Part shown: piece by piece, positions 1-11,657 of the stretch
Layout: the number at the start of each line of letters is the position of its first letter
Position numbering within the stretch: position 1 is the first letter of the stretch
The notes under the pieces: generated by a model
What the model saw: the letters and a program-made list of their open reading frames with translations, nothing else
Databases searched by the model: none
Told to the model about the DNA's origin: nothing
Program-made: the position numbers and the translations under genes
Source: a virus
Lineage: Duplodnaviria; Heunggongvirae; Uroviricota; Caudoviricetes
IMG/VR virus record: IMGVR_UViG_2537562189_000011
Span: 1-11,657 of that record
DNA length: 11,657 nt
Strand: one strand, 5' to 3'

Positions 1-441
1 TCATTCATCAGCGCCATACATCCAGTTATTGCGGTTAGCGGCCCGTTCTTCCTCCTCACGGAATCCACCCGCAGCACGCTTGTTTTTTGTGGACGGATCA
101 AGCCATTTCGTTTTCTGGTTATGACACGCCTGGCACAATGGCTGATGATTCCACTCAGGCCAGAAGAGAACATCATTACCGCCATCGATTGGGATAATGT
201 GATCCACCACCACGGCGGGCGTGTATATTCCTTTTTCCAGGCAATGCGCACATAACGGGTTTTTACTCAGATACATGGCGCGGTATTTCTCCCACTGCCT
301 CGTATACCCTCGCTCCCTGCTGCTGCCTCTCCGGCTGTCCTGCTGCTGGCGTGCGCTGCGTCTGTGCTCCTCACACTTGCCGGACTTCACGCGCCTGTTG
401 CAGCCTGGTTCTGTACATCGTCTTAATGGTTGCCACGGCAT
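1..441 (-). CDS. HNH endonuclease (packaging-associated)
   Basis: 146-aa ORF, ATG at 441-439, stop at 3-1. Cys-x2-Cys ... VVDHIIP ... N ... Cys-x2-CHNQK zinc-finger HNH motif. Start overlaps the stop of the upstream connector gene by 1 nt (TGATG). Confidence 0.85.
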   Translation of the reverse strand: MPWQPLRRCTEPGCNRRVKSGKCEEHRRSARQQQDSRRGSSRERGYTRQWEKYRAMYLSKNPLCAHCLEKGIYTPAVVVDHIIPIDGGNDVLFWPEWNHQPLCQACHNQKTKWLDPSTKNKRAAGGFREEEERAANRNNWMYGADE

Positions 442-737
442 CAGTACACCCCCACATCACGGTAAGCCGTCCAGAGTGCGCCAATCGTCATGGGTACGTG
501 TGTTTTTGCGTTATCCGCGACAATCTGGCGATTCTCATACAGGTGAGCGATAAACATCATGCAGCCAATCTTTATGGCTGGCGTGAACTCCAGCCCGTCA
601 TCAAAGCGCCTGCCTATGTGTATCTGGCACGCCTCAAGCGATGCGGCAATGTATCCGCTGATTAACTGGTCTTCCTCGTCTCCATCGATACGGCAATGGA
701 GTTTCACTTCTTCCAGGGTGATAAGTTCTTCTGTCAT
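441..737 (-). CDS. Head-tail connector protein (gp6-like)
   Basis: 98-aa ORF; N-terminus MTEELITLEEVKLHCRIDGDEEDQLISGYIAASLEACQ matches the conserved start of gp6-like connector proteins. ATGA overlap with the upstream gene. Confidence 0.75.
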   Translation of the reverse strand: MTEELITLEEVKLHCRIDGDEEDQLISGYIAASLEACQIHIGRRFDDGLEFTPAIKIGCMMFIAHLYENRQIVADNAKTHVPMTIGALWTAYRDVGVY

Positions 738-1072
738 TTTTCCGCGCCCTCACGACAAAGAATTTCAAGGCGTGTCCTGGCGACATCCGGCAACGGCTGC
801 CCGATGATATTCAGTACACGCCCCGCCAGCGGCCCCGTACTGACCTTTATCCGGCTGGTGGCGTTGATGTCCTTCCGGTACCGTATCCAGATCCTTACGG
901 TACCAATCGCCAGCTCTGCGCCCGATGAAATGGCCTCCTTGCTGCTGATCATGTTCACGCTTGCCCAGAGTGTGTGACCGTCCTCCCACGTTTCGAGTAT
1001 TTCGCCCGTCATGGCTCTGGTCTGTTTCAGGGTCTGAATCGTTATCCTGTCACGCAGTCGCCCTATGTTCAT
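734..1072 (-). CDS. Head closure / head-tail adaptor protein
   Basis: About 112 aa from ATG 1072-1070, which overlaps the portal stop as ATGA; an alternative ATG at 1114 would give 126 aa. MNIGRLRDRITIQ ... VRIWIRYRKDI pattern typical of head closure proteins. Confidence 0.65.
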   Translation of the reverse strand: MNIGRLRDRITIQTLKQTRAMTGEILETWEDGHTLWASVNMISSKEAISSGAELAIGTVRIWIRYRKDINATSRIKVSTGPLAGRVLNIIGQPLPDVARTRLEILCREGAEK

Positions 1073-2277
1073 TCCGGTTTTTCTCCCTCGCTGATTTTTA
1101 CTTCCTGTTTCCATGCCTGACTGAACTCATCACCACCATCACGCGGTGACAGTCCTTCACGTTCGCGGGCTTCGTTCGGGCACATAACGCCGGATTTGAT
1201 GCCGCGCTCATAGGTGGCAAAGCGTTCGCCAGGTGTGGCCCGTAACAGGTCCGCGCTGTCAAACTCCACCTGATACCGGATACCAGGTACAGGCGAGGCC
1301 ACCAGCAGGGCGTTTTTTATCTGCTGCTCAAAGTTCGCCAGCCACGGGCGCATCGTCATGGTGAGAAATGCGCGGCTTGCCTCGCTGAAATTGCTGTAGG
1401 TGCTGTTGCTGTATTCCTGCAAAAAAATCGGCGAGACGTTGAACATTCGGGCGATGTCTTCAATGGTAAAGCGACGGGAGGCCAGCCATTCAGCATCCTG
1501 ATTACTCATGCCCAGCTGCTGATAGCTCATCCCCCCTTCAAGGATGGGCGTTTTTCCGGCGTTTCTGGCCCCTTTGTAGCGTTCCAGTGCGGCTAATGCC
1601 TGTTTGCCCTTCACGCCGTCCAGCCATTCGCCTGACGTGATAACCCCTGCCGCCATCATGCCATCACGCATCACGCTCGCGCCGTGGCGTTGTTGGGCCA
1701 GCCCAAGCCCCAGCGATTCGCGGCAGATGGTTACAGGTGAGCGCCCCATAAAGCCGTCATCCGTGGAGTAACGAAGGTGAAGTACTTCCCACGGTAAATA
1801 GTTGTGGGTGTTTCCGGTGTAGGCGTCAGTGATGCAATAGCGCCAGTTGTGTTCGCCTGTCTGCTCCACGTTCACCGACTGCGGCGGGTAAGGATGTAAA
1901 GCCGCCGGAAAACCATCACGCCCCCACTGAATAACCGCATAAGCATTACCGTTTAACAGGCAGTGGCGGATCATCATTCGCTTAAACTGGTAGGGGGTTT
2001 GCCATGCGTTCGGGCGCTCGTTGAGGATGTGATCGACCGGATGAGAATCAAGCCACTCGCGGGCCTCCTTCCCCTTCTCATTGCGTACCAGGTACAGGTA
2101 GCATGGCATAGTAGCCACCGCCTCAGAGATGACCGTAACGGCGTTCATGACGGCAGGCAGTGATTCCGCTGTCCCCGATGATACGTACTCACCCGCCCCC
2201 GTGTTCGATGTGCCAGCCAGCGCCATAAATTCATCAAGCGTCATGCTGCGCTGCTCTTTTTTCTTCTGAAAGGCCAC
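1069..2277 (-). CDS. Portal protein (HK97 family)
   Basis: 402-aa ORF in the size range and position of HK97-type portals. GTG start at 2277 preceded by GGGGG; alternative ATG at 2244 (MTLDEF...). Lies 3 nt after the protease stop. Confidence 0.8.
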   Translation of the reverse strand: MAFQKKKEQRSMTLDEFMALAGTSNTGAGEYVSSGTAESLPAVMNAVTVISEAVATMPCYLYLVRNEKGKEAREWLDSHPVDHILNERPNAWQTPYQFKRMMIRHCLLNGNAYAVIQWGRDGFPAALHPYPPQSVNVEQTGEHNWRYCITDAYTGNTHNYLPWEVLHLRYSTDDGFMGRSPVTICRESLGLGLAQQRHGASVMRDGMMAAGVITSGEWLDGVKGKQALAALERYKGARNAGKTPILEGGMSYQQLGMSNQDAEWLASRRFTIEDIARMFNVSPIFLQEYSNSTYSNFSEASRAFLTMTMRPWLANFEQQIKNALLVASPVPGIRYQVEFDSADLLRATPGERFATYERGIKSGVMCPNEAREREGLSPRDGGDEFSQAWKQEVKISEGEKPE

Positions 2278-2280
2278 ATA

Positions 2281-2853
2281 TCACACCCCCGCTAAATCCA
2301 CCCACCAGCGGCGATTATCCGCACGCGGCATTTTTTCGGGGTGCTGCTCATACAGGGAACGGCGGGCCAGCTCCACGCCGGAATCGGGGTAAGCCGGTAC
2401 CGATGTAACGGTAATTTCGTACAGTTCCGCCACCAGCACGGTGCGCACGCATGGATCTGTTGTGGTATCCCATACATCCTTACGGGAGCGAAAGCCAAAG
2501 CTCATGCCGGATATATCACCACGTTTAACCAGTTCGATAACGTCGCGCCCTGTACTGGTATCCGGTGGGGTCAGTTCAAAGCGTAACCCTGTTTCATCCT
2601 CTTCCAGTTTCAGCGTGCCGGAACGGGTGCGCCCCAGTAACATACTGTGGTCATGCTCATACAGGCCGCGAACGTCATTACCCGCCGCAAGCCATTCAGT
2701 AAACGCCCCCCGCTGGAATTTTTCGTAAAACTCACCCCATAACAGTTCTGAAAGCTTATCCCAGCGAACAACGTAGCCTGTAAGCGTGTTGCTGCCGCTG
2801 GTGGTGATTTCCGATGACCGGATTTCCATACTCTTCATAATTTTTTCACCCAT
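2281..2853 (-). CDS. Prohead maturation protease (HK97 / S78 family)
   Basis: 190-aa ORF between the capsid and portal genes, with sequence character of HK97-type prohead proteases. Three in-frame ATGs at 2853, 2838 and 2829; 2838 has the best spacing to a GGTGA Shine-Dalgarno. Confidence 0.8.
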   Translation of the reverse strand: MGEKIMKSMEIRSSEITTSGSNTLTGYVVRWDKLSELLWGEFYEKFQRGAFTEWLAAGNDVRGLYEHDHSMLLGRTRSGTLKLEEDETGLRFELTPPDTSTGRDVIELVKRGDISGMSFGFRSRKDVWDTTTDPCVRTVLVAELYEITVTSVPAYPDSGVELARRSLYEQHPEKMPRADNRRWWVDLAGV

Positions 2854-2882
2854 AAAACACTAAAGGGGCTTTTAAGCCCCTT
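2852..2882 (-). terminator. Intergenic hairpin with U-tract between capsid and protease genes (candidate attenuator)
   Basis: AAGGGGCT (2863-2870), loop TTTA, AGCCCCTT (2875-2882). On the minus strand the stem is followed by UAGUGUUUUAU. Confidence 0.45.
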
Positions 2883-2892
2883 CTGTATGCTG

Positions 2893-4050
2893 TTAATCGT
2901 CGTCCTGTGGCAGTTCCAGAATCTTGATCGCGTTCGAATCCACCACGCCACCGCCTAAATATTTCTGCGTGAAAATTTTGATGAAGCCCGGCTCTGTGAG
3001 GTTGTCCGGTCTGGTGCGAACACCTGTTTCGTGATCAACAATGTAGTAACCGCGTTTGAAGTCACCCAGGGCAATAACGTTATCAGGCATAAACTCCAGA
3101 TATTCGACCGGAAGGCCCAGCAACGTATCAGGATCACCCGCCTGTAAACGGTCACGCCAGATGTAATCACCGTTCGCGTTCTTCACCTTCTGGAGTTTTG
3201 CCGCCGTCGTGGAGTTAACCACCCAGACCGCGTTTTTGCGGTATTTTTTACGTAATGCAAATTTCAGGTCGATCAGCGGGTCCGCAGATGTCCACGCCAG
3301 AGATTCGGAAGGTTTAATTACCTGCAACGTACCAAAATCACGCTCTTTGTCGTTCTTCTCTGCACGGGGTACGGATAAAAAGCCTTTTGCTTTTTTGTCA
3401 CCGTCGCCCACAACCAGATCGCTTTCTTCGGTTTCCGTGAAGGTGTCGCCAATCTCGCCCGTCAGCCATGAAAGGATGTCCACATCGGAAAAATCCACGA
3501 TTTCCTGTGTGGTGCGCGGGTACGCATAGACCGGATACAGCTTAATGCTCACCTCGTTAATCTGCGGGGTGCTGGTCTGTTCGCGTGCCTTACCCTCTTC
3601 ACCGTGGTTAACGGTCGCACCGCCAGCGGAAACAAGCTGCTTAAACTCGTTGCTGCTGATTTTTTTCACGGTACAGATGCGGCGCATGGTGGACTCATCC
3701 GCCAGCATTCGCATGATTTCGGTGTTCAGTTCGGGGATAACGGTATAACCACCATCAGCGGGAACGCCTGTACTTAATGCGCGGGTTTCACCTGTCAGAA
3801 TGTAGTTGCGGAGTTCTGCGGGGTCAGTGGTCTGACTGCTTTTACCTGGCTTGCTGCGCTCTTCGTCTGCAATGGCTTCAAGGCGGGAAATGTCTTTATC
3901 GAGGGATTCAGCTTTAGCGCGTAATTCGTCAAATTTTGCGCCCTCTGCATCGTTAAGGCTGCGGTTTTCTTTTTCCGCGTTCTCCAGCATGTCGCGCATC
4001 TGATTTTTAATGGCGGTTTTCTGCTGGCGTAATTCGATTATTCTCGGCAT
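2893..4050 (-). CDS. Major capsid protein (HK97 fold) with N-terminal scaffolding-like delta domain
   Basis: 385-aa ORF, ATG at 4050. The N-terminal ~100 aa is charged and coiled-coil-like (ELRQQKTAIKNQMRDMLENAEKENRSLNDAEGAKFDELRAKAESLDKDISRLEAIADEE), as in the delta domain of HK97-type capsid proteins; no separate scaffold gene is seen. Confidence 0.85.
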   Translation of the reverse strand: MPRIIELRQQKTAIKNQMRDMLENAEKENRSLNDAEGAKFDELRAKAESLDKDISRLEAIADEERSKPGKSSQTTDPAELRNYILTGETRALSTGVPADGGYTVIPELNTEIMRMLADESTMRRICTVKKISSNEFKQLVSAGGATVNHGEEGKAREQTSTPQINEVSIKLYPVYAYPRTTQEIVDFSDVDILSWLTGEIGDTFTETEESDLVVGDGDKKAKGFLSVPRAEKNDKERDFGTLQVIKPSESLAWTSADPLIDLKFALRKKYRKNAVWVVNSTTAAKLQKVKNANGDYIWRDRLQAGDPDTLLGLPVEYLEFMPDNVIALGDFKRGYYIVDHETGVRTRPDNLTEPGFIKIFTQKYLGGGVVDSNAIKILELPQDDD

Positions 4051-4140
4051 AAAAAAAGTACCTGGGTTAAGTAAGGAACTCCAGGACGCGGCAAAAACTC
4101 AACCGTTTTTCATAAGGAAATCAGCAATCGCACCGATCGT

Positions 4141-4246
4141 TTTCCCGCCTGGTAATGAATATTGGTGAGCACATTAACAGGCGGGAAAGTGGCCCCAGCG
4201 TCCTGGCACCACTGGCGAGAATAATCATGATTCAGGGCGGGTAAAA
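4141..4246. promoter_or_regulatory. Inverted and direct repeats of TTTCCCGCCTG upstream of the capsid operon (candidate regulator binding sites)
   Basis: TTTCCCGCCTG at 4141-4151 is the exact reverse complement of CAGGCGGGAAA at 4178-4188; an inner TAATG/CATTA pair (4153-4157 / 4172-4176) extends the palindrome. A related CAGGGCGGGTAAAA lies at 4233-4246. All are 90-200 bp upstream of the capsid start. Confidence 0.4.
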
Positions 4247-4291
4247 TATGCCGATCCGGTCAATGAACAACGTGGAACGACCACGAACAAA

Positions 4292-4330
4292 TAATTTACA
4301 AAAATTACAAAAAGCCGGATTTCTCCGGCT
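4292..4330 (-). terminator. Rho-independent terminator separating the replication/regulatory operon from the capsid operon
   Basis: Stem AGCCGGA (4313-4319), loop TTTC, TCCGGCT (4324-4330). On the minus strand it is followed by UUUUGUAAUUUUUGU, and it sits immediately 3' of the stop at 4337. Confidence 0.6.
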
Positions 4331-4336
4331 GTTTGA

Positions 4337-5029
4337 TTAGCTGTCCTGGTAATTGCGCCATATTTCATCACCAGCACCATCTATACCCATTTCGGCATAA
4401 GTGCGATCGACTGCCTTTTTCAGGTCTCCGAAATTATCCGGCGGCTCCGGTGCCCTCTGTGCCTTCCTTGAACATTCCAGCCGTCGCATCGTGATGTGAT
4501 GCCGTTCCTTGTCTGTCTCCACCAGCTGCATGACTTCACCCCATCGCGCCGCCGCCCTCCGGTAAAAGCCTTTCGCCTCCAGTTCCTCCGCTATGCGGTC
4601 ATGTACCATCGTCACCCCCTCAGAACGAAATATCATCACCGTAAGGGTCATCGCTCCCGCTGGTGGCTGATTACCCTGTGTGCCTGTGGTTTTGCGTCTG
4701 TTCCCGCCAGGAAGTGCCGCACGGGCACTGATTACGCTGTCTGCAATAACCTGATAACCCTGCCGCGTTTCCCCATTCTGTCCGGTCCACTGGCTGACCT
4801 GCATCGTGCCGGATACGCTGGCAACGTCGCCTTTTTGATGTTTAGCCAGGAAGTCGGCCTGCTTACCAAATGCGATGACCGATAGCCATAACGTCGCCTG
4901 CCCATCCTGCGCCTGACTACATGGCAGCGATACCGCCATACGCGCCAGCGTCATCGGTGTACCCTTGCTGGTCTGTTTTACCTGCTGGTCGTCCACCAGC
5001 CGCCCGTAAGCCGCTATCTGTGCTGTCAT
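4337..5029 (-). CDS. Two-domain protein: N-terminal SSB-like OB fold, Gly/Pro/Gln linker, C-terminal PerC-like small-regulator domain
   Basis: 230-aa ORF, ATG at 5029 overlapping the upstream stop (ATGA). Residues 1-105 follow the SSB OB-fold pattern (GRL..D..V ... TLW.SVI.FGK.A.F..K..KGD ... WT...G..R). The C-terminal ~90 aa carries AEELEAKGFYRRAAARW, recalled from PerC-type regulators. An internal ATG at 4609 has a strong GAGGGGG Shine-Dalgarno 5 nt upstream. Confidence 0.55.
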   Translation of the reverse strand: MTAQIAAYGRLVDDQQVKQTSKGTPMTLARMAVSLPCSQAQDGQATLWLSVIAFGKQADFLAKHQKGDVASVSGTMQVSQWTGQNGETRQGYQVIADSVISARAALPGGNRRKTTGTQGNQPPAGAMTLTVMIFRSEGVTMVHDRIAEELEAKGFYRRAAARWGEVMQLVETDKERHHITMRRLECSRKAQRAPEPPDNFGDLKKAVDRTYAEMGIDGAGDEIWRNYQDS

Positions 5030-5288: not shown

Positions 5289-5479
5289 TCTCACTTTTTC
5301 GCCTCACTTTTTCAAGCGTCTCACTTCGTCGCAATTGGGATTTTTGGTTTTTCTATGTGTGTGTTTCATAAGTATTTTTTTACCCCTCACTTTTGAGGAT
5401 GTATACAGGTAGAAAAGTGAGGGAGAGCAGGCTAATTTTGGCCCTCTTTCTATCCACCTCGCTTTTGCTCCTCACTTTT
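5289..5479. repeat. Iteron cluster (CTCACTTTT) flanking an AT-rich segment; candidate replication origin
   Basis: Perfect copies at 5290-5298, 5304-5312, 5387-5395 and 5471-5479, one inverted copy (AAAAGTGAG, 5413-5421), and degenerate copies at 5320-5328 (CTCACTTCG) and 5459-5467 (CTCGCTTTT). AT-rich core at 5331-5384. Lies immediately 3' of the helicase gene. Confidence 0.6.
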
Positions 5480-6459
5480 ATAGCGGCGCTACATCATCCC
5501 CATCGATACGAATAACCCCATCTTTTTCCAGCTTGTACAGCCAGCGCCGGAAGTTTTTCATTTCATACCCCAGCTTTTTCATGTCATCACGTAACAGCGG
5601 GATCGTGCACTTGTCGCCGTTCTGTGTGCGTGAACGGATGCACCCCCATAGCGCGGTATGGTTTTCCGTCTTGTTCCCTGCCTCCTCGATGCGCTCCAGT
5701 TCAACGGGAGGGCGCGGCTTATCCACCACCACCAGCGACGTGATTAATTCACCGTCAGCGTCGGTAAAAAGCTCCACCACGCGTAAGTCATATGCGGCTT
5801 CTTTGAGTTCCTCCGCGTCCTTCATTTTGGTGCATGAGATAACCAGCGCTTCGCCTCCTGCGTCCTCCCTGCGTATCCGGTATTCAGCATCCAGCGAAGC
5901 ACGAAATGCACTGGAACCGCGCGCGCCTTTCGCTCATCCTTGCCGGAATGGTGAACCACCAGCACCGTGGCCCCTGTGCGTCGATTCAGTTCGTCACAAC
6001 CACGGATAAACGCCCCCATATCACGGGAATCATTTCATCATTCCCACCAAGGCAACGCGCCAGCGTATCCAGAATAATCATGCGTACAGGTTTACCCGTT
6101 TCCCGCTCCACCTGACGGGCAGCGATAACCATTTCATCAACATCAAGCGGGGCAGCCGGAAAGATGGGGCGGTTTACCAGATACAGATTTTTCACCTGCT
6201 CATCGTGCACAACCTCCCAGGCTTTTACACGACGCGGAACACCTATACCGCCTTCACCAACCACATAGAGAACCGCACCATGTGCAACCCTGCGGCCTCC
6301 CCACTGGCGACCAGTGGCAACATGGCACGCCCACGATCCGGCAAGGAATGATTTATAGGACCCGCTAGCCCCGTATATGCTGCATAGCGATACCGCCGGA
6401 ATAATCCCCTTAACCACGTAATCCAGTTGCGTGTCGTATCCGGTAGATCCAACGCTCAT
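5478..6459 (-). pseudogene. Replication helicase (AAA_25 / RepA-like) disrupted by two frameshifts
   Basis: Three consecutive minus-strand ORFs in three frames together form one helicase-like protein: Walker A GASGSYKS and Walker B MIILDTL (6459-5986), GATVLVVHHSGKD (6019-5822), C-terminal domain (5825-5478). Reading continuity needs about +1 nt near 6033-6035 and -2 nt in the CCGCGCGCGCC tract at 5917-5927, which restores ...HHSGKDERKARGSSAFRASLD.... Confidence 0.7.
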
Positions 6460-6875
6460 CGGTAGCGTGGTTTTTCGCTGGTGGTTTTTTCTTCCGCCGG
6501 CTCTTTCCCGCGCACCCGTTCCAGGTATTCGCGCCAGTTCTCCCGCATATGGCTGTGCATCCCTTCGGGGTAATAATTCGCATCAGTTACACCCGCCGCC
6601 GCCAGTTTGTGCGCAATGGCATTAATATTTGATGGCCTGATGTGGCCTGCCTTGTACAGCCGGACACAATAGCGCCCCTCGTCGATGATTCTCAGGTCTG
6701 CCAGTTCATCCAGTTGATCATCAGCCAGCACAACGGGAGGCACATTATCGCCAGCCAGTCGCCCGTCCTGTTCCTGCCACTGTTTCGCATGTGCCCAGGC
6801 ATCACTACCCGCAAAAATAATGACTTCGGTCATCTTGTCGTAAGGCTGTTTTTTTAAGTTCGGTGCGCTTTTCAT
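6456..6875 (-). CDS. Hypothetical protein (139 aa), coupled upstream partner of the helicase gene
   Basis: ATG at 6875 with AGGGG Shine-Dalgarno; ATGA overlaps with both the upstream gene and the helicase start. No confident domain assignment. Confidence 0.55.
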   Translation of the reverse strand: MKSAPNLKKQPYDKMTEVIIFAGSDAWAHAKQWQEQDGRLAGDNVPPVVLADDQLDELADLRIIDEGRYCVRLYKAGHIRPSNINAIAHKLAAAGVTDANYYPEGMHSHMRENWREYLERVRGKEPAEEKTTSEKPRYR

Positions 6876-8072: not shown

Positions 8073-8262
8073 AGCGCACCTCCTGACGAATACGGGCGGC
8101 AAATACAGCAACACAACCTGACGGGCAACGGCTATGCGCTTCGCGTTCCGTCCAGGCGGTTACGTGGATGATTTGAGATTCTCCGGCACTCAGTGCCAGA
8201 AAACGCCACACAAAGGCCGTTTGTGTGTGTACAAGGTGTGGGGTATGATTTACGGCAACCAT
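8065..8262 (-). CDS. Hypothetical small protein (65 aa)
   Basis: ATG at 8262 preceded by GAGGAG at 5-nt spacing; the ORF track's longer version starts at a GTG at 8361. No recognised domain. Confidence 0.5.
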   Translation of the reverse strand: MVAVNHTPHLVHTQTAFVWRFLALSAGESQIIHVTAWTEREAHSRCPSGCVAVFAARIRQEVRYD

Positions 8263-8351
8263 AACGGCTCCTCGTTTACGTTGTTGGTTAGAAGCCCTGC
8301 GAGTGGTAATGACACTTGCGGGGCTTTGCTTTTTTAAGTGCTCTTGTGTTA

Positions 8352-8397
8352 AGGTGGTCACCTAACAATAGAAAGGCTAATTCAATAGGTGACCACT
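8352..8397. promoter_or_regulatory. Operator-like inverted repeat pair (GGTGGTCACC / GGTGACCAC) in the divergent intergenic region
   Basis: GGTGGTCACC at 8353-8362 and its near reverse complement GGTGACCAC at 8388-8396, centres 35 bp apart, between the minus-strand gene starting at 8262 and the plus-strand gene starting at 8457. Confidence 0.45.
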
Positions 8398-8456
8398 TGT
8401 CAACAATCAAACGCGATAAAAGCCCTAAAGGGGACGGGCAATCCCCACAATTCAGA

Positions 8457-8588
8457 ATGCGAATTTCTCCAGAGCTAAAAGAGCAATTCGATAAAGAAGC
8501 ACAGAGCGACGGCATAAGCCTAGCCAACTGGCTTAAAGAGTTGGGGCGCACTGAACTAAAGCGGCGCGGTATAGAACCCAAAGGATAA
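8457..8588 (+). CDS. Ribbon-helix-helix (Arc/CopG-like) DNA-binding protein, copy 1 (43 aa)
   Basis: MRISPELKEQFDKEAQSDGISLANWLKELGRTELKRRG fits the strand-helix-helix pattern of ribbon-helix-helix regulators (Arc/CopG-like). Nested in the 90-aa ORF-track ORF 8316-8588; Shine-Dalgarno is weak. Confidence 0.45.
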   Translation: MRISPELKEQFDKEAQSDGISLANWLKELGRTELKRRGIEPKG

Positions 8589-8590
8589 AA

Positions 8591-8637
8591 ACTATCAGCG
8601 CCGTGGTGTGAGGTACTACGGCGCATTGCTTTACAGG
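8591..8637 (+). repeat. 47-bp conserved hairpin element, copy 1
   Basis: ACTATCAGCGCCGTGGTGTGAGGTACTACGGCGCATTGCTTTACAGG, 46 of 47 identical to 9332-9378. Contains a GCGCCGT / ACGGCGC stem (extendable to 11 bp with G-U pairs). Begins 2 nt after the stop codon and ends 8 nt before the next ATG. Confidence 0.7.
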
Positions 8638-8645
8638 GCAGTACC

Positions 8646-8873
8646 ATGACCAACAACACACTATCACCAATACAAGACACGCAAACGCAAGATGATGAAA
8701 TCATCCGGCAAAGGCAGTCAGAAGCCTGCGCCAGACTTGAGGAAGAACTAACCAGAACAAAAATACCACCACCAGCGCCGCGCTTAGTGCCACCAGAAAA
8801 ATTTGCCCTTGAAGATTTTGTCGATAAATACCCACGGCGGCTTAAATCCGGCAAAAACCGACCGCCAGGATGA
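8646..8873 (+). CDS. Hypothetical small protein (75 aa), MTNN... N-terminus
   Basis: ATG 8 nt after the 47-bp element. The first ~50 nt are homologous to the start of the ORF at 9387. No recognised domain. Confidence 0.4.
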   Translation: MTNNTLSPIQDTQTQDDEIIRQRQSEACARLEEELTRTKIPPPAPRLVPPEKFALEDFVDKYPRRLKSGKNRPPG

Positions 8874-8892
8874 GTGCACAAAACCGAACTAT

Positions 8893-8930
8893 GAAACGGA
8901 TTATTCCGTTTCCGGGGCGTTTGTGTGTGT
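8893..8930 (+). terminator. Candidate terminator hairpin after the first plus-strand gene pair
   Basis: GAAACGGA (8893-8900), loop TTAT, TCCGTTTC (8905-8912), followed by CGGGGCGTTTGTGTGTGT. The T-tract is interrupted, so this is weak. A second hairpin ACGCCCCG / CGGGGCGT (8993-9026) is followed by TTGTTGTTTTGGG. Confidence 0.3.
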
Positions 8931-9036
8931 ATAAAGAGTAAGCTATGCTCTTTTATAGCCATAATCGTTACCTCAATTAATGGTTTGGTTAGACGCCCCG
9001 TATGTGTTCCCATCACTGCGGGGCGTTGTTGTTTTG

Positions 9037-9129
9037 GGTGTATTTCACCTTCATTTTTAAATCTACATTCAGGTGAAATACACCGCAAGACTTTTTTTAT
9101 CTTTTTTTTTGCGTATACTGAAATACACC
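9037..9129 (+). promoter_or_regulatory. Promoter/operator region of the second ribbon-helix-helix gene: GGTG-N5-CACC inverted repeats plus a TATACT -10
   Basis: GGTGTATTTCACC at 9037-9049 and its reverse complement GGTGAAATACACC at 9072-9084 (centres 35 bp apart); a third half-site TGAAATACACC at 9119-9129 overlaps a TATACT at 9114-9119; T-rich stretch at 9091-9110; AGGAG Shine-Dalgarno at 9137-9141. Confidence 0.5.
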
Positions 9130-9149
9130 GATTATCAGGAGAACCAGAA

Positions 9150-9329
9150 ATGGCAACAGGTGCAAAGAACGCAAAATCACAAATGACAACGGTCAGAATC
9201 CCGCATGAGGTAATGACCGATATTGAGCAACTTAAAGAACCTGGCGAAAGTACCGCCGGATTTCTAGTTACGGCAGCAAAAGGCGAGATCAAACGCCGCC
9301 AGCGCCGCAAGGCCAAAGAATCAGAATAA
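9150..9329 (+). CDS. Ribbon-helix-helix (Arc/CopG-like) DNA-binding protein, copy 2 (59 aa)
   Basis: ATG at 9150 with CAGGAG Shine-Dalgarno at 8-nt spacing. TTVRIPHEVMTDIEQLKEPGESTAGFLVTAAKGEIKRR fits the ribbon-helix-helix pattern. Nested in the 134-aa ORF-track ORF 8925-9329. Confidence 0.55.
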   Translation: MATGAKNAKSQMTTVRIPHEVMTDIEQLKEPGESTAGFLVTAAKGEIKRRQRRKAKESE

Positions 9330-9331
9330 TT

Positions 9332-9378
9332 ACTATCAGCGCCGTGGCGTGAGGTACTACGGCGCATTGCTTTACAGG
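9332..9378 (+). repeat. 47-bp conserved hairpin element, copy 2
   Basis: ACTATCAGCGCCGTGGCGTGAGGTACTACGGCGCATTGCTTTACAGG; same placement as copy 1 (2 nt after the stop, 8 nt before the next ATG). Confidence 0.7.
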
Positions 9379-9386
9379 TACACACA

Positions 9387-9536
9387 ATGACCAATAAAGA
9401 ATCAACCAATACACCATCGCAAAAAACGAACAGAGAGCACGAAAATATGGCGCTCGAGCATGAATCAGAAAGATTCGCTCCATGCGCTTTTGTCCTTGAT
9501 GAGTTTCTAAAAAATATTCACGTTCTGAACGGATGA
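9387..9536 (+). CDS. Hypothetical small protein (49 aa), MTNK... N-terminus; not in the ORF track
   Basis: ATG at 9387 to TGA at 9534-9536, translated by hand: MTNKESTNTPSQKTNREHENMALEHESERFAPCAFVLDEFLKNIHVLNG. Position and first codons parallel the ORF at 8646. Confidence 0.3.
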   Translation: MTNKESTNTPSQKTNREHENMALEHESERFAPCAFVLDEFLKNIHVLNG

Positions 9537-9864: not shown

Positions 9865-10053
9865 TTAGTGAACTGCCTTGCAGCTATCCTTCCAGGCCAA
9901 AACCTCAGATAAAGACCAGCCAACAGAACGCCCGCCAAGTTTACGACGTGATGGGAATTGTCCGGCCTTTTCCAGGCGGTAGCGGCATGAGCGGCTAAGG
10001 CCTGTTAGCTTTTCGCATTCTTTTTCACGTATAAACCGATCAGTGCTTAACAC
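9865..10053 (-). CDS. alpA: AlpA-family phage regulatory protein (small HTH regulator)
   Basis: 62 aa; RFIREKECEKLTGLSRSCRYRLEKAGQFPSRRKLGGRSVGWSLSEVLAWK matches the AlpA helix-turn-helix signature. GTG start at 10053 with AAGGGGG Shine-Dalgarno 5 nt upstream. Confidence 0.85.
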   Translation of the reverse strand: MLSTDRFIREKECEKLTGLSRSCRYRLEKAGQFPSRRKLGGRSVGWSLSEVLAWKDSCKAVH

Positions 10054-10427: not shown

Positions 10428-11657
10428 TTATTTTATTCTGGTTACTGGTAGCGTGGTTACGTTTTCATGTGTTCCCGCCAGTATCTCCAACCGCTCCACC
10501 CACATATCAAGCGCATTGCGTTTCGCATCAATATAGCGGGAATGGTTGTACACGCGTTGCATTCCTAGCATCTGGTGGCCTGTAAGCTGCTCCACGACGT
10601 GAGGATCAACGCCTAAATCGTTCAGCATGGTTGTAAAGGTGCGCCGGATGTCATGCAGTGACCAGTGAGGGTGTTTAAGCCTCCTGTGCACCAATCTGCC
10701 GTACTGCGATACGCTGGTTTCCTGTTTCACTTCCCCCAGCAATAAGCCCGTGTGCCTGTTCTGCTCCACCAGCTGCGTGACGAACGGCAGTATCGCTTCC
10801 GGTATGGGCCGGAATATGGCTACCTTCGTTTTGCTGTGCTCCTTCGGAACGGTCCAGAGCATTTCGGTAAAATCCCACTCGCCGATCTCCGATAACCTCA
10901 GTTCTACTGTCCGGCATCCGAAAACAATCAGGAGGCGGATTAGTGCGACGTAGTAAGGGGAAAATATTTTTTTGTCCAGTGCCTGCAATAATTCGCCAAG
11001 TTCTTTGTTACTTAAGACACGCTCACTTATATCCGGTTTTTTCCCAACGTCCGCCACACTCATATCATCAAGAACGTTGCTGATTGCATAGCGCCGCTTC
11101 CTGCAGAACTTAAGCGCCTGCTTGCATGTCTGTAGCAGGAACCCGGCGGAAACAGGGGCTTTCTTTGCCACCCGATCAAAACAGGCCAGCCAGTGCCGTA
11201 GCTCGCATTTATCCAGCGGCATAGGGCCAATGTGCTGTATTACGTGATTATTTAGCCGCTTTTTCAGTGGGTCATAATCCACACGGTTTTCCTTTGCGTA
11301 CGACTCAAGCCAGTAGGTGAGCGCATCGCCAACCGTTACCGGCTTTAACGCTTCCTGTACGGTGTAATTCATTTCATGACGTGGATTTTTCCCCTCTGCC
11401 AGCCATGCGCGACACTGGGCGGCTTTTTCCCTGGCTGATTTCAGGCTCAGATCAGGATAATTTCCCAGCTTAATGCGTTCCGGTGGTGCCCCCCTTCCCG
11501 TTCCGGCCCTGTAAGTGAAATACCAGGTTAAAAGGCCACTGGTTGAATGCCTGACGCTCAGGTTTCCACCGTCATTAAGAAAGGCTGTTTTTTGGGCGGG
11601 TGTGCCGTTGATTTTCCTCAGCTGGGTATCGCTCAGTTTGTTAAGTGCTCTGCTCAT
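10428..11657 (-). CDS. int: Tyrosine integrase, P4-type (site-specific recombinase)
   Basis: 409-aa ORF, ATG exactly at the window end (11657-11655), TAA at 10430-10428. N-terminal arm-binding-like domain (GLLTWYFTYRAGTGRG..RIKLGNYPDLSLKSAREKA) and a C-terminal catalytic domain with HxxR and a terminal Tyr region as expected for tyrosine recombinases. Confidence 0.9.
   Translation of the reverse strand: MSRALNKLSDTQLRKINGTPAQKTAFLNDGGNLSVRHSTSGLLTWYFTYRAGTGRGAPPERIKLGNYPDLSLKSAREKAAQCRAWLAEGKNPRHEMNYTVQEALKPVTVGDALTYWLESYAKENRVDYDPLKKRLNNHVIQHIGPMPLDKCELRHWLACFDRVAKKAPVSAGFLLQTCKQALKFCRKRRYAISNVLDDMSVADVGKKPDISERVLSNKELGELLQALDKKIFSPYYVALIRLLIVFGCRTVELRLSEIGEWDFTEMLWTVPKEHSKTKVAIFRPIPEAILPFVTQLVEQNRHTGLLLGEVKQETSVSQYGRLVHRRLKHPHWSLHDIRRTFTTMLNDLGVDPHVVEQLTGHQMLGMQRVYNHSRYIDAKRNALDMWVERLEILAGTHENVTTLPVTRIK

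What the first reader, a model, noticed from the sequence alone, without database searches (positions are those of the whole stretch)
1..4050. Head module is in non-canonical order (capsid, protease, portal, adaptors, HNH) with tight translational coupling
In HK97-like phages the transcriptional order is terminase, portal, protease, capsid, connector, closure. Here the capsid gene is first in the operon, followed by a hairpin/U-tract (2852-2882), then protease, portal, closure, connector and HNH, with 1-4 nt overlaps between genes. Putting the capsid gene first with an attenuator behind it would favour capsid stoichiometry. Inverted order relative to phages points to an independent, satellite-type module rather than a recent capture of a phage operon.
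Basis: partly seen in the sequence, partly recalled or inferred. Interest (0 to 1): 0.5.

Follow-up and report, generated by a model that had tools for sequence, protein, structure and literature searches.

The report
Known cf-PICI capsid-first packaging operon
This stretch is the capsid-and-packaging operon of a well-studied phage satellite (a near-copy of the prototype cf-PICI EcCIEDL933); its capsid-first gene order is real, but it is already published as the hallmark of that family, so the finding is correct but not new.

Summary
On the minus strand the window encodes major capsid (4050..2893), S78 prohead protease (2853/2838..2281), portal (2277..1069), head closure Hc1 (1072..734), gp6-like adaptor Ad1 (737..441) and HNH (441..1). 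A GC-rich hairpin with a U-tract (2883..2853) follows the capsid gene. Three junctions overlap by 4, 4 and 1 nt.

Window 1-4335 is 97.3% identical to the E. coli EDL933 chromosome. The capsid differs at 2 of 385 residues from EcCIEDL933 and PDB 9gyi. The cf-PICI papers already state that proteobacterial cf-PICIs have the conserved order capsid-protease-portal-connectors, then hnh-terS-terL, and use it as a recognition criterion.

In my survey every locus complete enough to score whose capsid is at least 51% identical had this order. All relatives at 40% or below, and HK022, had the canonical order. This supports an old, satellite-specific module.

The attenuator idea is plausible but untested. 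The hairpin is conserved in 78 of 84 distinct cf-PICI sequences, but a hairpin also follows the capsid gene in canonical-order phages, so it is not special to the satellite order. Tight overlaps are ordinary for phage head operons.

In passing I found a conserved structured leader with covariation, and a promoter-like region, upstream of the capsid gene. Neither is in Rfam or the papers searched.

The parts
2893..4050 (-). Major capsid protein gene (HK97 fold, 385 aa). It is the first gene of the packaging operon. The maturation motif STGVPAD lies at residues 93-99.
   Evidence: PF05065 E=1.6e-61. phrog_10. 383 of 385 residues identical to PDB 9gyi and to the EDL933 capsid.
2853..2883 (-). Intrinsic-terminator-like hairpin after the capsid stop. 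The stem is at 2883..2862 (GAAGGGGCU UAAA AGCCCCUUU), followed by an interrupted U-tract down to about 2853.
   Evidence: Terminator scan. Fold -17.8 kcal/mol, z = -3.3. Identical in EDL933. A hairpin of -9 kcal/mol or stronger is present in 78 of 84 distinct cf-PICI sequences, 55 of them with at least 4 T in the next 9 nt.
2281..2853 (-). Prohead serine protease (Peptidase_S78), 190 aa from the ATG at 2853. An alternative start is the ATG at 2838, preceded by GGGUGA.
   Evidence: PF04586 E=4e-48. PGAP uses the long form in EDL933 and the short form in strain 10. An A-run length difference at window position 2841 decides which ATG is in frame.
1069..2277 (-). Portal protein, 402 aa from the GTG at 2277. 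The prototype starts at the ATG at 2279; in the window that ATG is out of frame because an A-run is 1 nt shorter.
   Evidence: PF04860 E=2.3e-90. Indel at window position 2257. N-termini compared.
734..1072 (-). Head closure / head completion protein (Hc1), 112 aa. Its start overlaps the portal stop (ATGA).
   Evidence: PF05521 and phrog_25. Junction sequence. Identical to the EDL933 protein.
441..737 (-). gp6-like head-tail adaptor (Ad1), 98 aa. Its start overlaps the Hc1 stop (ATGA).
   Evidence: PF05135 and phrog_40. Junction.
1..441 (-). HNH endonuclease, the packaging accessory of HK97-type terminases, 146 aa. Its start overlaps the Ad1 stop by 1 nt (TGATG). The window ends at its stop codon.
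   Evidence: PF01844 and phrog_144. TerS and TerL follow in L001 and L282.
4051..4212 (-). Structured 5' leader directly upstream of the capsid ATG. SL1 lies at 4212..4189 (GACG loop). SL2 lies at 4188..4141. The 3' domain includes GCGUCCUGG (4089..4081), which is complementary to the SL1 apex, and a U7 run at 4057..4051. There is no Shine-Dalgarno sequence before the ATG.
   Evidence: Fold z = -3.1. Covariation in SL1 and SL2. The SL1 motif lies 93-120 nt upstream of the capsid gene in 112 of 114 IMG/VR loci. The covariance model matches window SL1+SL2 at 25 bits with filters off. No Rfam family.
4218..4302 (-). Promoter-like region. It holds the conserved box TTTGTAAATTATTTGTTC (4302..4285), three GTTC repeats with a 10-bp period (4288, 4278, 4268), a -35-like TTTTAC (4246..4241) and a -10-like TTATTC/TATTCT (4224..4218).
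   Evidence: Conserved across 48 diverse cf-PICI upstream regions. The box is unique in the window and absent from HK022. The function is inferred only.
4313..4330 (-). Terminator-like hairpin AGCCGGAGAAAUCCGGCU followed by UUUUUG. It closes the upstream replication/PerC gene block.
   Evidence: Terminator scan. Sequence.

Best explanation
The region is the morphogenesis and packaging operon of an EcCIEDL933-type capsid-forming phage-inducible chromosomal island (cf-PICI), a phage satellite.

Shown by others for the prototype: the island makes its own small T=4 HK97-fold capsids from capsid, protease and portal. It caps them with its own head-closure and adaptor proteins, which select the helper tails. 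It packages only its own DNA with HNH-TerS-TerL, and it takes tails and lysis functions from a helper phage.

Shown here: the order capsid-protease-portal-Hc1-Ad1-HNH(-orf-TerS-TerL) is the fixed signature of the whole proteobacterial cf-PICI clade. It is absent from all canonical-order relatives examined.

Inferred: the operon is transcribed from an activator-dependent promoter about 160 nt upstream of the capsid ATG, through a structured leader. A leaky intrinsic terminator or 3'-stabilising hairpin after the capsid gene lowers the amount of message for everything downstream. All downstream products are needed at about one-twentieth or less of the capsid copy number (235 capsid to 12 portal). 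Those genes are then read as one translationally coupled block. The hairpin is inherited from the HK97-like ancestor, where it also follows the capsid gene. Putting the capsid gene first simply lets that single punctuation mark separate the one high-copy product from all the low-copy ones.

The confidence of 0.9 applies to the identity and the known-order claim. The attenuation step alone I would put at about 0.5.
For: Identity:
- Pfam and PHROG assignments.
- Window 1-4335 is 97.3% identical to EDL933 1687837-1692174. There PGAP annotates capsid, protease, portal, closure, connector, HNH, orf, TerS and TerL next to int, alpA, primase, SSB and PerC.
- The capsid has 2 of 385 differences from EDL933 and from PDB 9gyi.
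- The window also has a tyrosine integrase, AlpA, a RepA-type replication gene, and no tail or lysis genes.

Published statements:
- The order is conserved, all packaging genes are essential for transfer, and the modules differ from the helper HK106.
- The capsid is T=4 with 240 positions, and the order is used as an identification criterion.
- SatelliteFinder defines 11 core components.

Synteny: every locus complete enough to score with a capsid at least 51% identical has this order, and every one at 40% or below has the canonical order.

Hairpin and junctions:
- The hairpin is conserved with several different stem sequences.
- The capsid>protease gap is conserved, median 49 nt. The other junctions are +1, -4, -4/-8 and -1.

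Leader and promoter region.
Against: - No transcript, 3'-end or protein-ratio data were available, so the attenuation step is inference.
- In the window and in EDL933 the U-tract is interrupted (UUUAGUGUUUU), so termination may be weak or absent.
- A hairpin follows the capsid gene in canonical phages too, so it says nothing about why the order changed.
- The promoter and transcription start are predicted from weak hexamers only; the sigma-70 scan found no strong promoter there.
- In this copy the replication gene is split into three ORFs and SSB is fused to PerC. This particular island may therefore be defective, or the sequence may carry homopolymer errors.
- TerS and TerL lie outside the window.
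Confidence: 0.9

Rival explanations
1. The hairpin does not terminate transcription. It acts as a 3' stem-loop that protects processed capsid mRNA from 3'-to-5' exonucleases. Capsid excess would then come from differential mRNA stability and from translation efficiency, with RNA polymerase reading through fully.
For: The U-tract in the window and in EDL933 is interrupted. 23 of 78 cf-PICI hairpins and 22 of 31 canonical-order hairpins have fewer than 4 T in the next 9 nt, yet the hairpin is still conserved. All downstream genes are essential for transfer.
Against: 55 of 78 cf-PICI hairpins do carry a U-rich tail typical of intrinsic terminators, and the Pasteurellaceae versions are textbook terminators. 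The two mechanisms are not exclusive.
Confidence: 0.3
2. The module is a remnant of a defective prophage whose head genes were scrambled by rearrangement, not a functional satellite module.
For: This copy has a split replication gene, a fused SSB-PerC ORF and several 1-nt indels relative to E. coli relatives. O157 Sakai annotates the homologous element as 'prophage Sp7; untypable'.
Against: All six head and packaging ORFs are intact and 88-100% identical to the experimentally active EcCIEDL933 proteins. The same order is found in well over 100 loci across Enterobacterales, Pasteurellales and Orbales. 358 of 5426 complete E. coli genomes carry the module. Linear virion-derived records such as vB_KppS-Ant and Pmp8 show that such elements are packaged.
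Confidence: 0.02
3. The order was copied recently from an as yet unsampled group of complete phages that have capsid-protease-portal order, so it is not satellite-specific.
For: One 106-kb GenBank 'Klebsiella phage P12620-1' record carries capsid-protease-portal in this order at its right end. Phage databases are incomplete.
Against: That record is almost unannotated and ends inside the module, so it looks like a chimera or co-assembly. The other 'phage' records at 58-65% identity are 15-16.5-kb satellites or a 3.8-kb fragment. No canonical-size phage among 413 capsid-matching records exceeded about 40% identity. The published trees separate cf-PICIs from phages.
Confidence: 0.04
4. The hairpin is a complete terminator, and protease through TerL are expressed from a separate promoter. 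There would then be two transcription units rather than one attenuated operon.
For: The gap after the capsid gene is the only sizeable intergenic space inside the module before HNH/TerS.
Against: Only 9-24 nt separate the U-tract from the protease start, so there is no room for -35 and -10 elements downstream of the hairpin. No promoter-like site was found on the minus strand there. A promoter buried in the capsid 3' end was not excluded.
Confidence: 0.05

Closest known systems
EcCIEDL933, the prototype capsid-forming PICI of E. coli O157:H7 EDL933 (Alqurainy et al., bioRxiv 10.1101/2022.09.08.507074; He et al., bioRxiv 10.1101/2025.02.11.637232; capsid structure PDB 9gyi)
   Same: The same genes in the same order. 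Window 1-4335 is 97.3% identical in DNA. Differences per protein: capsid 2 aa, protease 3 aa, Hc1 0 aa, Ad1 1 aa. The post-capsid hairpin and the leader are identical. Both have int, alpA, SSB and PerC upstream.
   Different: The left arm is mosaic: a RepA-type helicase here against a DUF927 primase in EDL933, and the integration site in the closest E. coli relative is different (tqsA). The HNH protein has 17 substitutions. The portal start is shifted by an A-run indel. The replication gene is split and SSB is fused to PerC in this copy.
HK97-like phage head modules (HK022, HK97, ST64B, Pseudomonas VW-6S), including the helper-type phages of cf-PICIs
   Same: The same protein families: P27-type TerS, TerL, portal, S78 protease, HK97-fold capsid with a cleaved delta domain, gp6-like Ad1 and Hc1, and HNH in many. 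A hairpin directly follows the capsid gene. Neighbouring genes overlap closely.
   Different: The order is (HNH)-TerS-TerL-portal-protease-capsid-Ad1-Hc1, followed by tail genes. Capsid identity is about 40% or less. These phages make T=7 heads. In the satellite both the triplet portal-protease-capsid and the pair Ad1-Hc1 are reversed in order with strand kept, and both are placed upstream of HNH.
Firmicutes cf-PICIs (two groups described by Alqurainy et al.)
   Same: The same minimal gene set and the same lifestyle.
   Different: One group begins its operon with portal-protease-capsid and the other with HNH-TerS-TerL. The authors infer independent origin.
Helper-embedded PICIs (Mageeney et al. 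2023, PMC10111431)
   Same: Some cf-PICI relatives retrieved here (L146-L158) sit inside a prophage terL gene, as described for the A:Terminase_1 sites.
   Different: In its closest relatives the window's element is integrated in a chromosomal gene, not in a prophage.

Membership tests
cf-PICI (capsid-forming PICI; SatelliteFinder model and Alqurainy/He criteria) | Tyrosine integrase at one end | tested here: met
   Window 11657..10428, with Arm-DNA-bind_3 and Phage_integrase domains.
cf-PICI (capsid-forming PICI; SatelliteFinder model and Alqurainy/He criteria) | AlpA/MerR-type regulator next to int | tested here: met
   Window 10053..9865, PF05930 Phage_AlpA, E=5e-18.
cf-PICI (capsid-forming PICI; SatelliteFinder model and Alqurainy/He criteria) | Primase/replicase module | tested here: inconclusive
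   A RepA-type helicase (AAA_25) is present at 6875..5478 but is split into three ORFs by indels relative to E. coli strain 10. This is either a pseudogene or sequence error.
cf-PICI (capsid-forming PICI; SatelliteFinder model and Alqurainy/He criteria) | Own major capsid, prohead protease and portal | tested here: met
   PF05065, PF04586 and PF04860, all as intact ORFs. 99% identical to the EcCIEDL933 proteins.
cf-PICI (capsid-forming PICI; SatelliteFinder model and Alqurainy/He criteria) | Head-tail adaptor and connector/closure genes | tested here: met
   PF05135 / phrog_40 and PF05521 / phrog_25.
cf-PICI (capsid-forming PICI; SatelliteFinder model and Alqurainy/He criteria) | HNH, TerS and TerL | tested here: inconclusive
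   HNH is present. TerS and TerL lie beyond position 1 of the window. They follow directly in L001 and in EDL933, which are 97-98% identical over the module.
cf-PICI (capsid-forming PICI; SatelliteFinder model and Alqurainy/He criteria) | Conserved proteobacterial order: capsid-protease-portal-connectors, then hnh-terS-terL | tested here: met
.
cf-PICI (capsid-forming PICI; SatelliteFinder model and Alqurainy/He criteria) | No tail or holin/lysis genes; size about 10-18 kb | tested here: met
   No such family was found among the window ORFs. The homologous E. coli elements are about 15 kb between chromosomal genes.
cf-PICI (capsid-forming PICI; SatelliteFinder model and Alqurainy/He criteria) | Helper-dependent transfer in its own small capsids | not testable with these tools
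   Shown experimentally for EcCIEDL933, not for this copy.
HK97-like tailed (pro)phage | Canonical order TerS-TerL-portal-protease-capsid-adaptor-closure, followed by tail genes | tested here: not met
   The order is reversed in two blocks and no tail genes are present.
Intrinsic (Rho-independent) terminator, for the 2883..2853 hairpin | GC-rich stem, short loop, and an uninterrupted U-tract immediately 3' of the stem | tested here: inconclusive
   The stem has 9 pairs, 5 of them GC, with a 4-nt loop. The tail UUUAGUGUUUU is interrupted. Most orthologous hairpins have at least 4 U in the next 9 nt. Function was not measured.

The most novel reading that the evidence does not exclude
The published part (the gene order) is only half of the architecture. 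Enterobacterial cf-PICIs may carry an undescribed cis-regulatory system around the capsid gene, made of three parts:
- an activator-type promoter with three 10-bp-periodic repeats;
- a leader RNA of about 125-165 nt, with SL1 (GACG loop), a covarying SL2, and a 3' hairpin that occludes the capsid start, which has no Shine-Dalgarno sequence;
- the conserved terminator after the capsid gene.

The apex of SL1 is complementary to the 5' arm of the 3' hairpin, and this complementarity is kept in three sequence types. That suggests a switch that gates capsid translation, or read-through, to the right moment of helper infection. Together with the post-capsid terminator it would set the capsid to minor-protein ratio.
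Probability: 0.35. Interest if true: 0.5.

Novelty: already known. Interest (0 to 1): 0.15.

Why it matters
The gene order itself adds nothing new. It is the published diagnostic of proteobacterial cf-PICIs, and this copy is nearly identical to the prototype.

The check adds three modest points.
1. A quantitative confirmation. The order tracks the capsid clade perfectly among the loci that could be scored, across more than 100 distinct sequences and three bacterial orders, with a clean identity gap (at least 51% within, at most 40% to canonical-order relatives).
2. The post-capsid hairpin is an inherited feature of HK97-like capsid genes, not a satellite invention. This weakens the adaptive story told for the order.
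3. A lead on how the operon may be regulated. A conserved structured leader and a promoter-like region upstream of the capsid gene are not mentioned in the cf-PICI papers read here, and the leader has no Rfam family. cf-PICIs are common (358 of 5426 complete E. coli genomes carry this module) and move between species by borrowing tails, so knowing what switches on their capsid operon would be useful.

Tried and rejected
- Rfam at gathering threshold on the window and on four related loci, and at E<=5 on 2800-4400. Nothing relevant was found for the hairpin or the leader. The only hits were a tRNA and an int-alpA RNA in other loci.
- tRNA/tmRNA scan of the window: none.
- Literature search for terminators or stem-loops after capsid genes: nothing useful.
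- Literature search for the leader and box sequences: no paper.
- Literature search for cf-PICI late activators: nothing specific. The words 'terminator' and 'promoter' do not occur in either cf-PICI preprint.
- Idea that the leader is a put-like antiterminator RNA of HK022. The put sites are not annotated in NC_002166. The leader covariance model and the box motif find nothing in HK022. The idea is neither supported nor properly tested.
- Idea that the repeat type in the promoter-like region tracks the gene immediately upstream (PerC or another). No correlation was found; that position holds variable accessory genes.
- Covariance model of the Klebsiella-type leader. With default filters it finds no counterpart in Pasteurellaceae, Xenorhabdus or Orbales cf-PICIs, nor in canonical phages. 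It finds only SL1+SL2 of the window, and only with filters off. The leader as defined is therefore confined to part of the Enterobacterales clade.
- L061 first appeared to be a canonical-clade capsid in satellite order. This was an artefact of sorting stop-to-stop ORFs by their start.
- cf-PICIs split across a prophage terL gene first looked new, but they are the published helper-embedded PICIs.

Full report
**What is in the sequence**

All long ORFs of the window lie on the minus strand. Between 4050 and 1 they are assigned as follows by Pfam and PHROGs:
- major capsid protein: 4050..2893, PF05065, E=1.6e-61
- Peptidase_S78 prohead protease: 2853..2281
- portal: 2277..1069, PF04860
- head completion / closure protein Hc1: PF05521, phrog_25
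- gp6-like head-tail adaptor Ad1: 737..441, PF05135, phrog_40
- HNH endonuclease: 441..1

The junction sequences are given. The closure gene starts at the ATG at 1072, giving an ATGA overlap with the portal stop. This is where the Pfam match begins and is the PGAP start in relatives. Hc1/Ad1 overlap as ATGA, and Ad1/HNH overlap as TGATG. Protease and portal are separated by 3 nt here and by 1 nt in EDL933. Capsid and protease are separated by 39 nt, or by 54 nt if the protease starts at the ATG at 2838.

That gap holds a hairpin, GAAGGGGCU-UAAA-AGCCCCUUU (2883..2862), followed by AGUGUUUUAU. The 63-nt RNA folds at -17.8 kcal/mol with z = -3.3.

**What it is**

The rest of the window holds a tyrosine integrase (11657..10428), AlpA (10053..9865), DUF4222, a RepA-type helicase, SSB and PerC. 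It has no tail or lysis genes.

Window 1-4335 matches the E. coli O157:H7 EDL933 chromosome (1687837-1692174) at 97.3% in one piece. The annotation there reads, in order: int, HTH (AlpA), DUF927 primase, SSB, PerC, capsid, protease, portal, head closure, connector, HNH, a small ORF, TerS (P27 family), TerL. The element lies between chromosomal genes. This is EcCIEDL933, the prototype capsid-forming PICI.

Protein differences from EDL933 are: capsid 2, protease 3, Hc1 0, Ad1 1, HNH 17. The capsid also differs at only 2 of 385 residues from PDB 9gyi, at the same positions that differ from the EDL933 protein. Of 5426 complete E. coli genomes, 358 carry at least 80% of window 1-4350. The left arm of the island is mosaic; the best full-length match is 95.5%.

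**Is the order known?**

Yes. [quoted passage not shown] It adds that two Firmicutes groups are ordered differently and that the three groups arose independently.

The follow-up paper uses this order as a search criterion and reports a T=4 capsid with 240 positions. SatelliteFinder defines the family by 11 core components, with tails and holins forbidden.

**Independent check of the synteny claim**

I aligned capsids of the window, three satellites and two phages. I used that alignment to fetch 80 loci from species-representative genomes and 80 from IMG/VR, and scored every locus with small HMMs for the eight proteins.

Every locus complete enough to score whose capsid is at least about 51% identical to the window had capsid-protease-portal-(Hc1)-Ad1-HNH-TerS-TerL. 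These loci come from Enterobacterales, Pasteurellales and Orbales. Every locus at 40% or below had (HNH)-TerS-TerL-portal-protease-capsid-Ad1-Hc1. So did HK022, ST64B and VW-6S.

The 113 distinct capsids in satellite order form one neighbour-joining clade. Minimum identity within the clade is 51%, and maximum identity to canonical-order capsids is 40%. One apparent exception, L061, was an ORF-sorting artefact.

In the phage database the only records above 40% identity are the following:
- 15-16.5-kb satellites deposited as phages (vB_KppS-Ant, Pasteurella Pmp8)
- a 3.8-kb fragment
- one almost unannotated 106-kb record that ends inside the module

The linear vB_KppS-Ant record starts at TerS and ends after HNH plus a small ORF. 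This places cos between them, as in HNH-type HK97-like phages. Relative to a phage, the block HNH-cos-TerS-TerL is kept. The head genes have been moved in front of it, and both the triplet portal-protease-capsid and the pair Ad1-Hc1 are reversed in order but not in strand. A single inversion cannot produce this.

**The hairpin and the 'attenuator' idea**

I took the 70 nt after the capsid stop in every locus. Of 84 distinct satellite-order sequences, 78 have a hairpin of -9 kcal/mol or stronger, and 77 have one that starts within 20 nt of the stop. Of the 78 hairpins, 55 have at least 4 T in the 9 nt after the GC-closed stem.

The stem is usually GGGGC/GCCCC. In some lineages it is replaced by unrelated stems, for example GCGUUCCUG/CAGGAGCGC in Proteus and Providencia, GGGGGA/UCCCCC, and GGAGGAGGC/GCCUCCUUU. 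This indicates that the structure is what is kept, not the sequence.

The capsid>protease gap is conserved, with a median of 49 nt. The other junctions are +1, -4, -4/-8 and -1. The only other large gap is HNH>TerS, median 273 nt, which is the cos region. The downstream genes are all essential for transfer, and there is no room for a promoter after the hairpin. RNA polymerase must therefore read through at least part of the time.

A leaky terminator, a 3' stabiliser, or both, giving more capsid message than downstream message, would fit the need for 235 capsid subunits per 12 portal subunits. This remains inference, because no transcript data could be consulted.

The hairpin is also not specific to the satellite arrangement. 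31 of 32 canonical-order relatives have a strong hairpin after the capsid gene, although mostly without a U-tract. HK022 has GGCGGG-GAAA-CCCGCC followed by AUUUUAA between its capsid and adaptor genes. The punctuation mark was therefore inherited with the capsid gene. What the new order changes is only which genes lie behind it.

Overlapping starts and stops are likewise usual in canonical head operons.

The capsid ATG has no Shine-Dalgarno sequence and is preceded by a conserved structured region.

In the Klebsiella/Enterobacter type the leader consists of:
- SL1: GUGGC-A-CUCA-GACG-UGAG-CC-GCCAC
- SL2: a long variable hairpin that follows immediately
- a C/U-rich spacer
- SL3: UGGUUUCACGUC...ACGGAAACCA, ending 4-7 nt before the AUG

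On 35 diverse leaders the three-helix model is 95.7% paired, against at most 49% for slid controls, and it exceeds all 500 shuffles. All 9 base pairs of the SL2 stem show double substitutions. SL1 has two covarying pairs. SL3 varies only through wobbles.

The SL1 apex (AGACGUGA) is complementary to the 5' arm of SL3 (UCACGUCU). This complementarity is kept in the Serratia-like type (GACGGG / CCCGUC) and in the window type (CCAGGACGC / GCGUCCUGG) (and by eye). That hints at alternative pairing, but it rests on only three lineages.

In 112 of the 114 newly fetched contigs it lies 93-120 nt upstream of a capsid gene in satellite order. A covariance model of this leader aligns window SL1 (4212..4189) and SL2 (4188..4141) at 25 bits, and only with filters off. 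It finds nothing in Pasteurellaceae, Xenorhabdus or Orbales satellites, nor in HK022. No Rfam family matches, and the sequences are not found in the searchable literature.

Further upstream lie the following:
- a conserved box TTTGTAAATTATTTGTTC (4302..4285)
- three GTTC repeats with a 10-bp period
- weak -35-like and -10-like hexamers ending about 6 nt before SL1
- a terminator-like hairpin (4330..4313) that closes the PerC gene block

I read this as an activator-dependent promoter plus a regulatory 5' UTR. That reading is inference.

**Verdict**

The satellite interpretation is right, but it is already in the literature, and this copy is an allele of the prototype. The stoichiometry and attenuator idea is reasonable and untested, and the evidence that the hairpin is ancestral weakens its link to the gene order. 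The finding ranks low for novelty. The leader and promoter region is the only part that may be new.

Noticed in passing
window 4051-4212 (minus strand): A conserved structured 5' leader lies directly upstream of the capsid ATG, which has no Shine-Dalgarno sequence. It has SL1 with a GACG loop, a covarying SL2, and a 3' hairpin next to the start codon. The SL1 apex is complementary to the 5' arm of that 3' hairpin in three sequence types. No Rfam family matches and it was not found in the papers searched.
   Followed up: partly
window 4218-4330 (minus strand): A promoter-like region is conserved across cf-PICIs. It holds the box TTTGTAAATTATTTGTTC (4302..4285), three GTTC repeats with a 10-bp period (other cf-PICIs have TACCC repeats instead), weak -35 and -10 hexamers, and a terminator-like hairpin at 4330..4313. 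The repeat type did not correlate with the gene immediately upstream.
   Followed up: partly
window 4337-5029 (minus strand): SSB and a PerC-family regulator are fused into one 230-aa ORF. In E. coli strain 10 and EDL933 they are two genes. A 1-nt difference at about 4654 causes the fusion. It is either a real frameshift or a homopolymer sequencing error.
   Followed up: partly
window 5478-6875 (minus strand): The RepA-type helicase gene is one 1398-nt gene in E. coli strain 10. Here it is split into three ORFs of 139, 157 and 115 aa by several 1-2-nt indels at 5933, 6033 and 6485. The island may be replication-defective, or the assembly may carry indel errors.
   Followed up: partly
window 2257 and 2841: Two A-run length differences from relatives sit exactly at gene starts. 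One moves the portal start from the prototype's ATG to a GTG two bases downstream, leaving a 12-codon mini-ORF that ends in ATGA at Met12. The other brings an upstream ATG into frame for the protease.
   Followed up: yes
window 8215-9397: A diverged tandem duplication of about 700-741 bp (70-85% identity between copies). It carries two copies of a YlcI/YnfO-like gene plus a small ORF on the plus strand, between alpA and the leftward early genes.
   Followed up: partly
L146, L147, L150-L154, L158 (IMG/VR contigs): Here cf-PICIs sit inside a prophage large-terminase gene. The two terL halves (HMM positions 6-312 and 307-541, or 3-202 and 195-533) flank the satellite, whose integrase lies next to the left half. 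A canonical portal-protease-capsid module follows the right half. This matches the published helper-embedded PICIs (PMC10111431).
   Followed up: yes
L002 (LR881103, 'Escherichia phage vB_KppS-Ant') and L003 (OR544139, 'Pasteurella phage Pmp8'): These GenBank 'phage' records of 15-16.5 kb are cf-PICI satellites. One ORF in vB_KppS-Ant is annotated as a tape measure protein, and one in Pmp8 as a tail terminator. The linear ends of vB_KppS-Ant place cos between HNH plus a small ORF and TerS. Pmp8 carries an int-alpA RNA (RF02996), which the window lacks.
   Followed up: partly
window 1-441 compared with L282: HNH is by far the most diverged protein of the module relative to EDL933, with 17 substitutions, at least 11 of them within residues 29-51. 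Hc1 is identical. This suggests local mosaicism or selection on the HNH N-terminal region.
   Followed up: no
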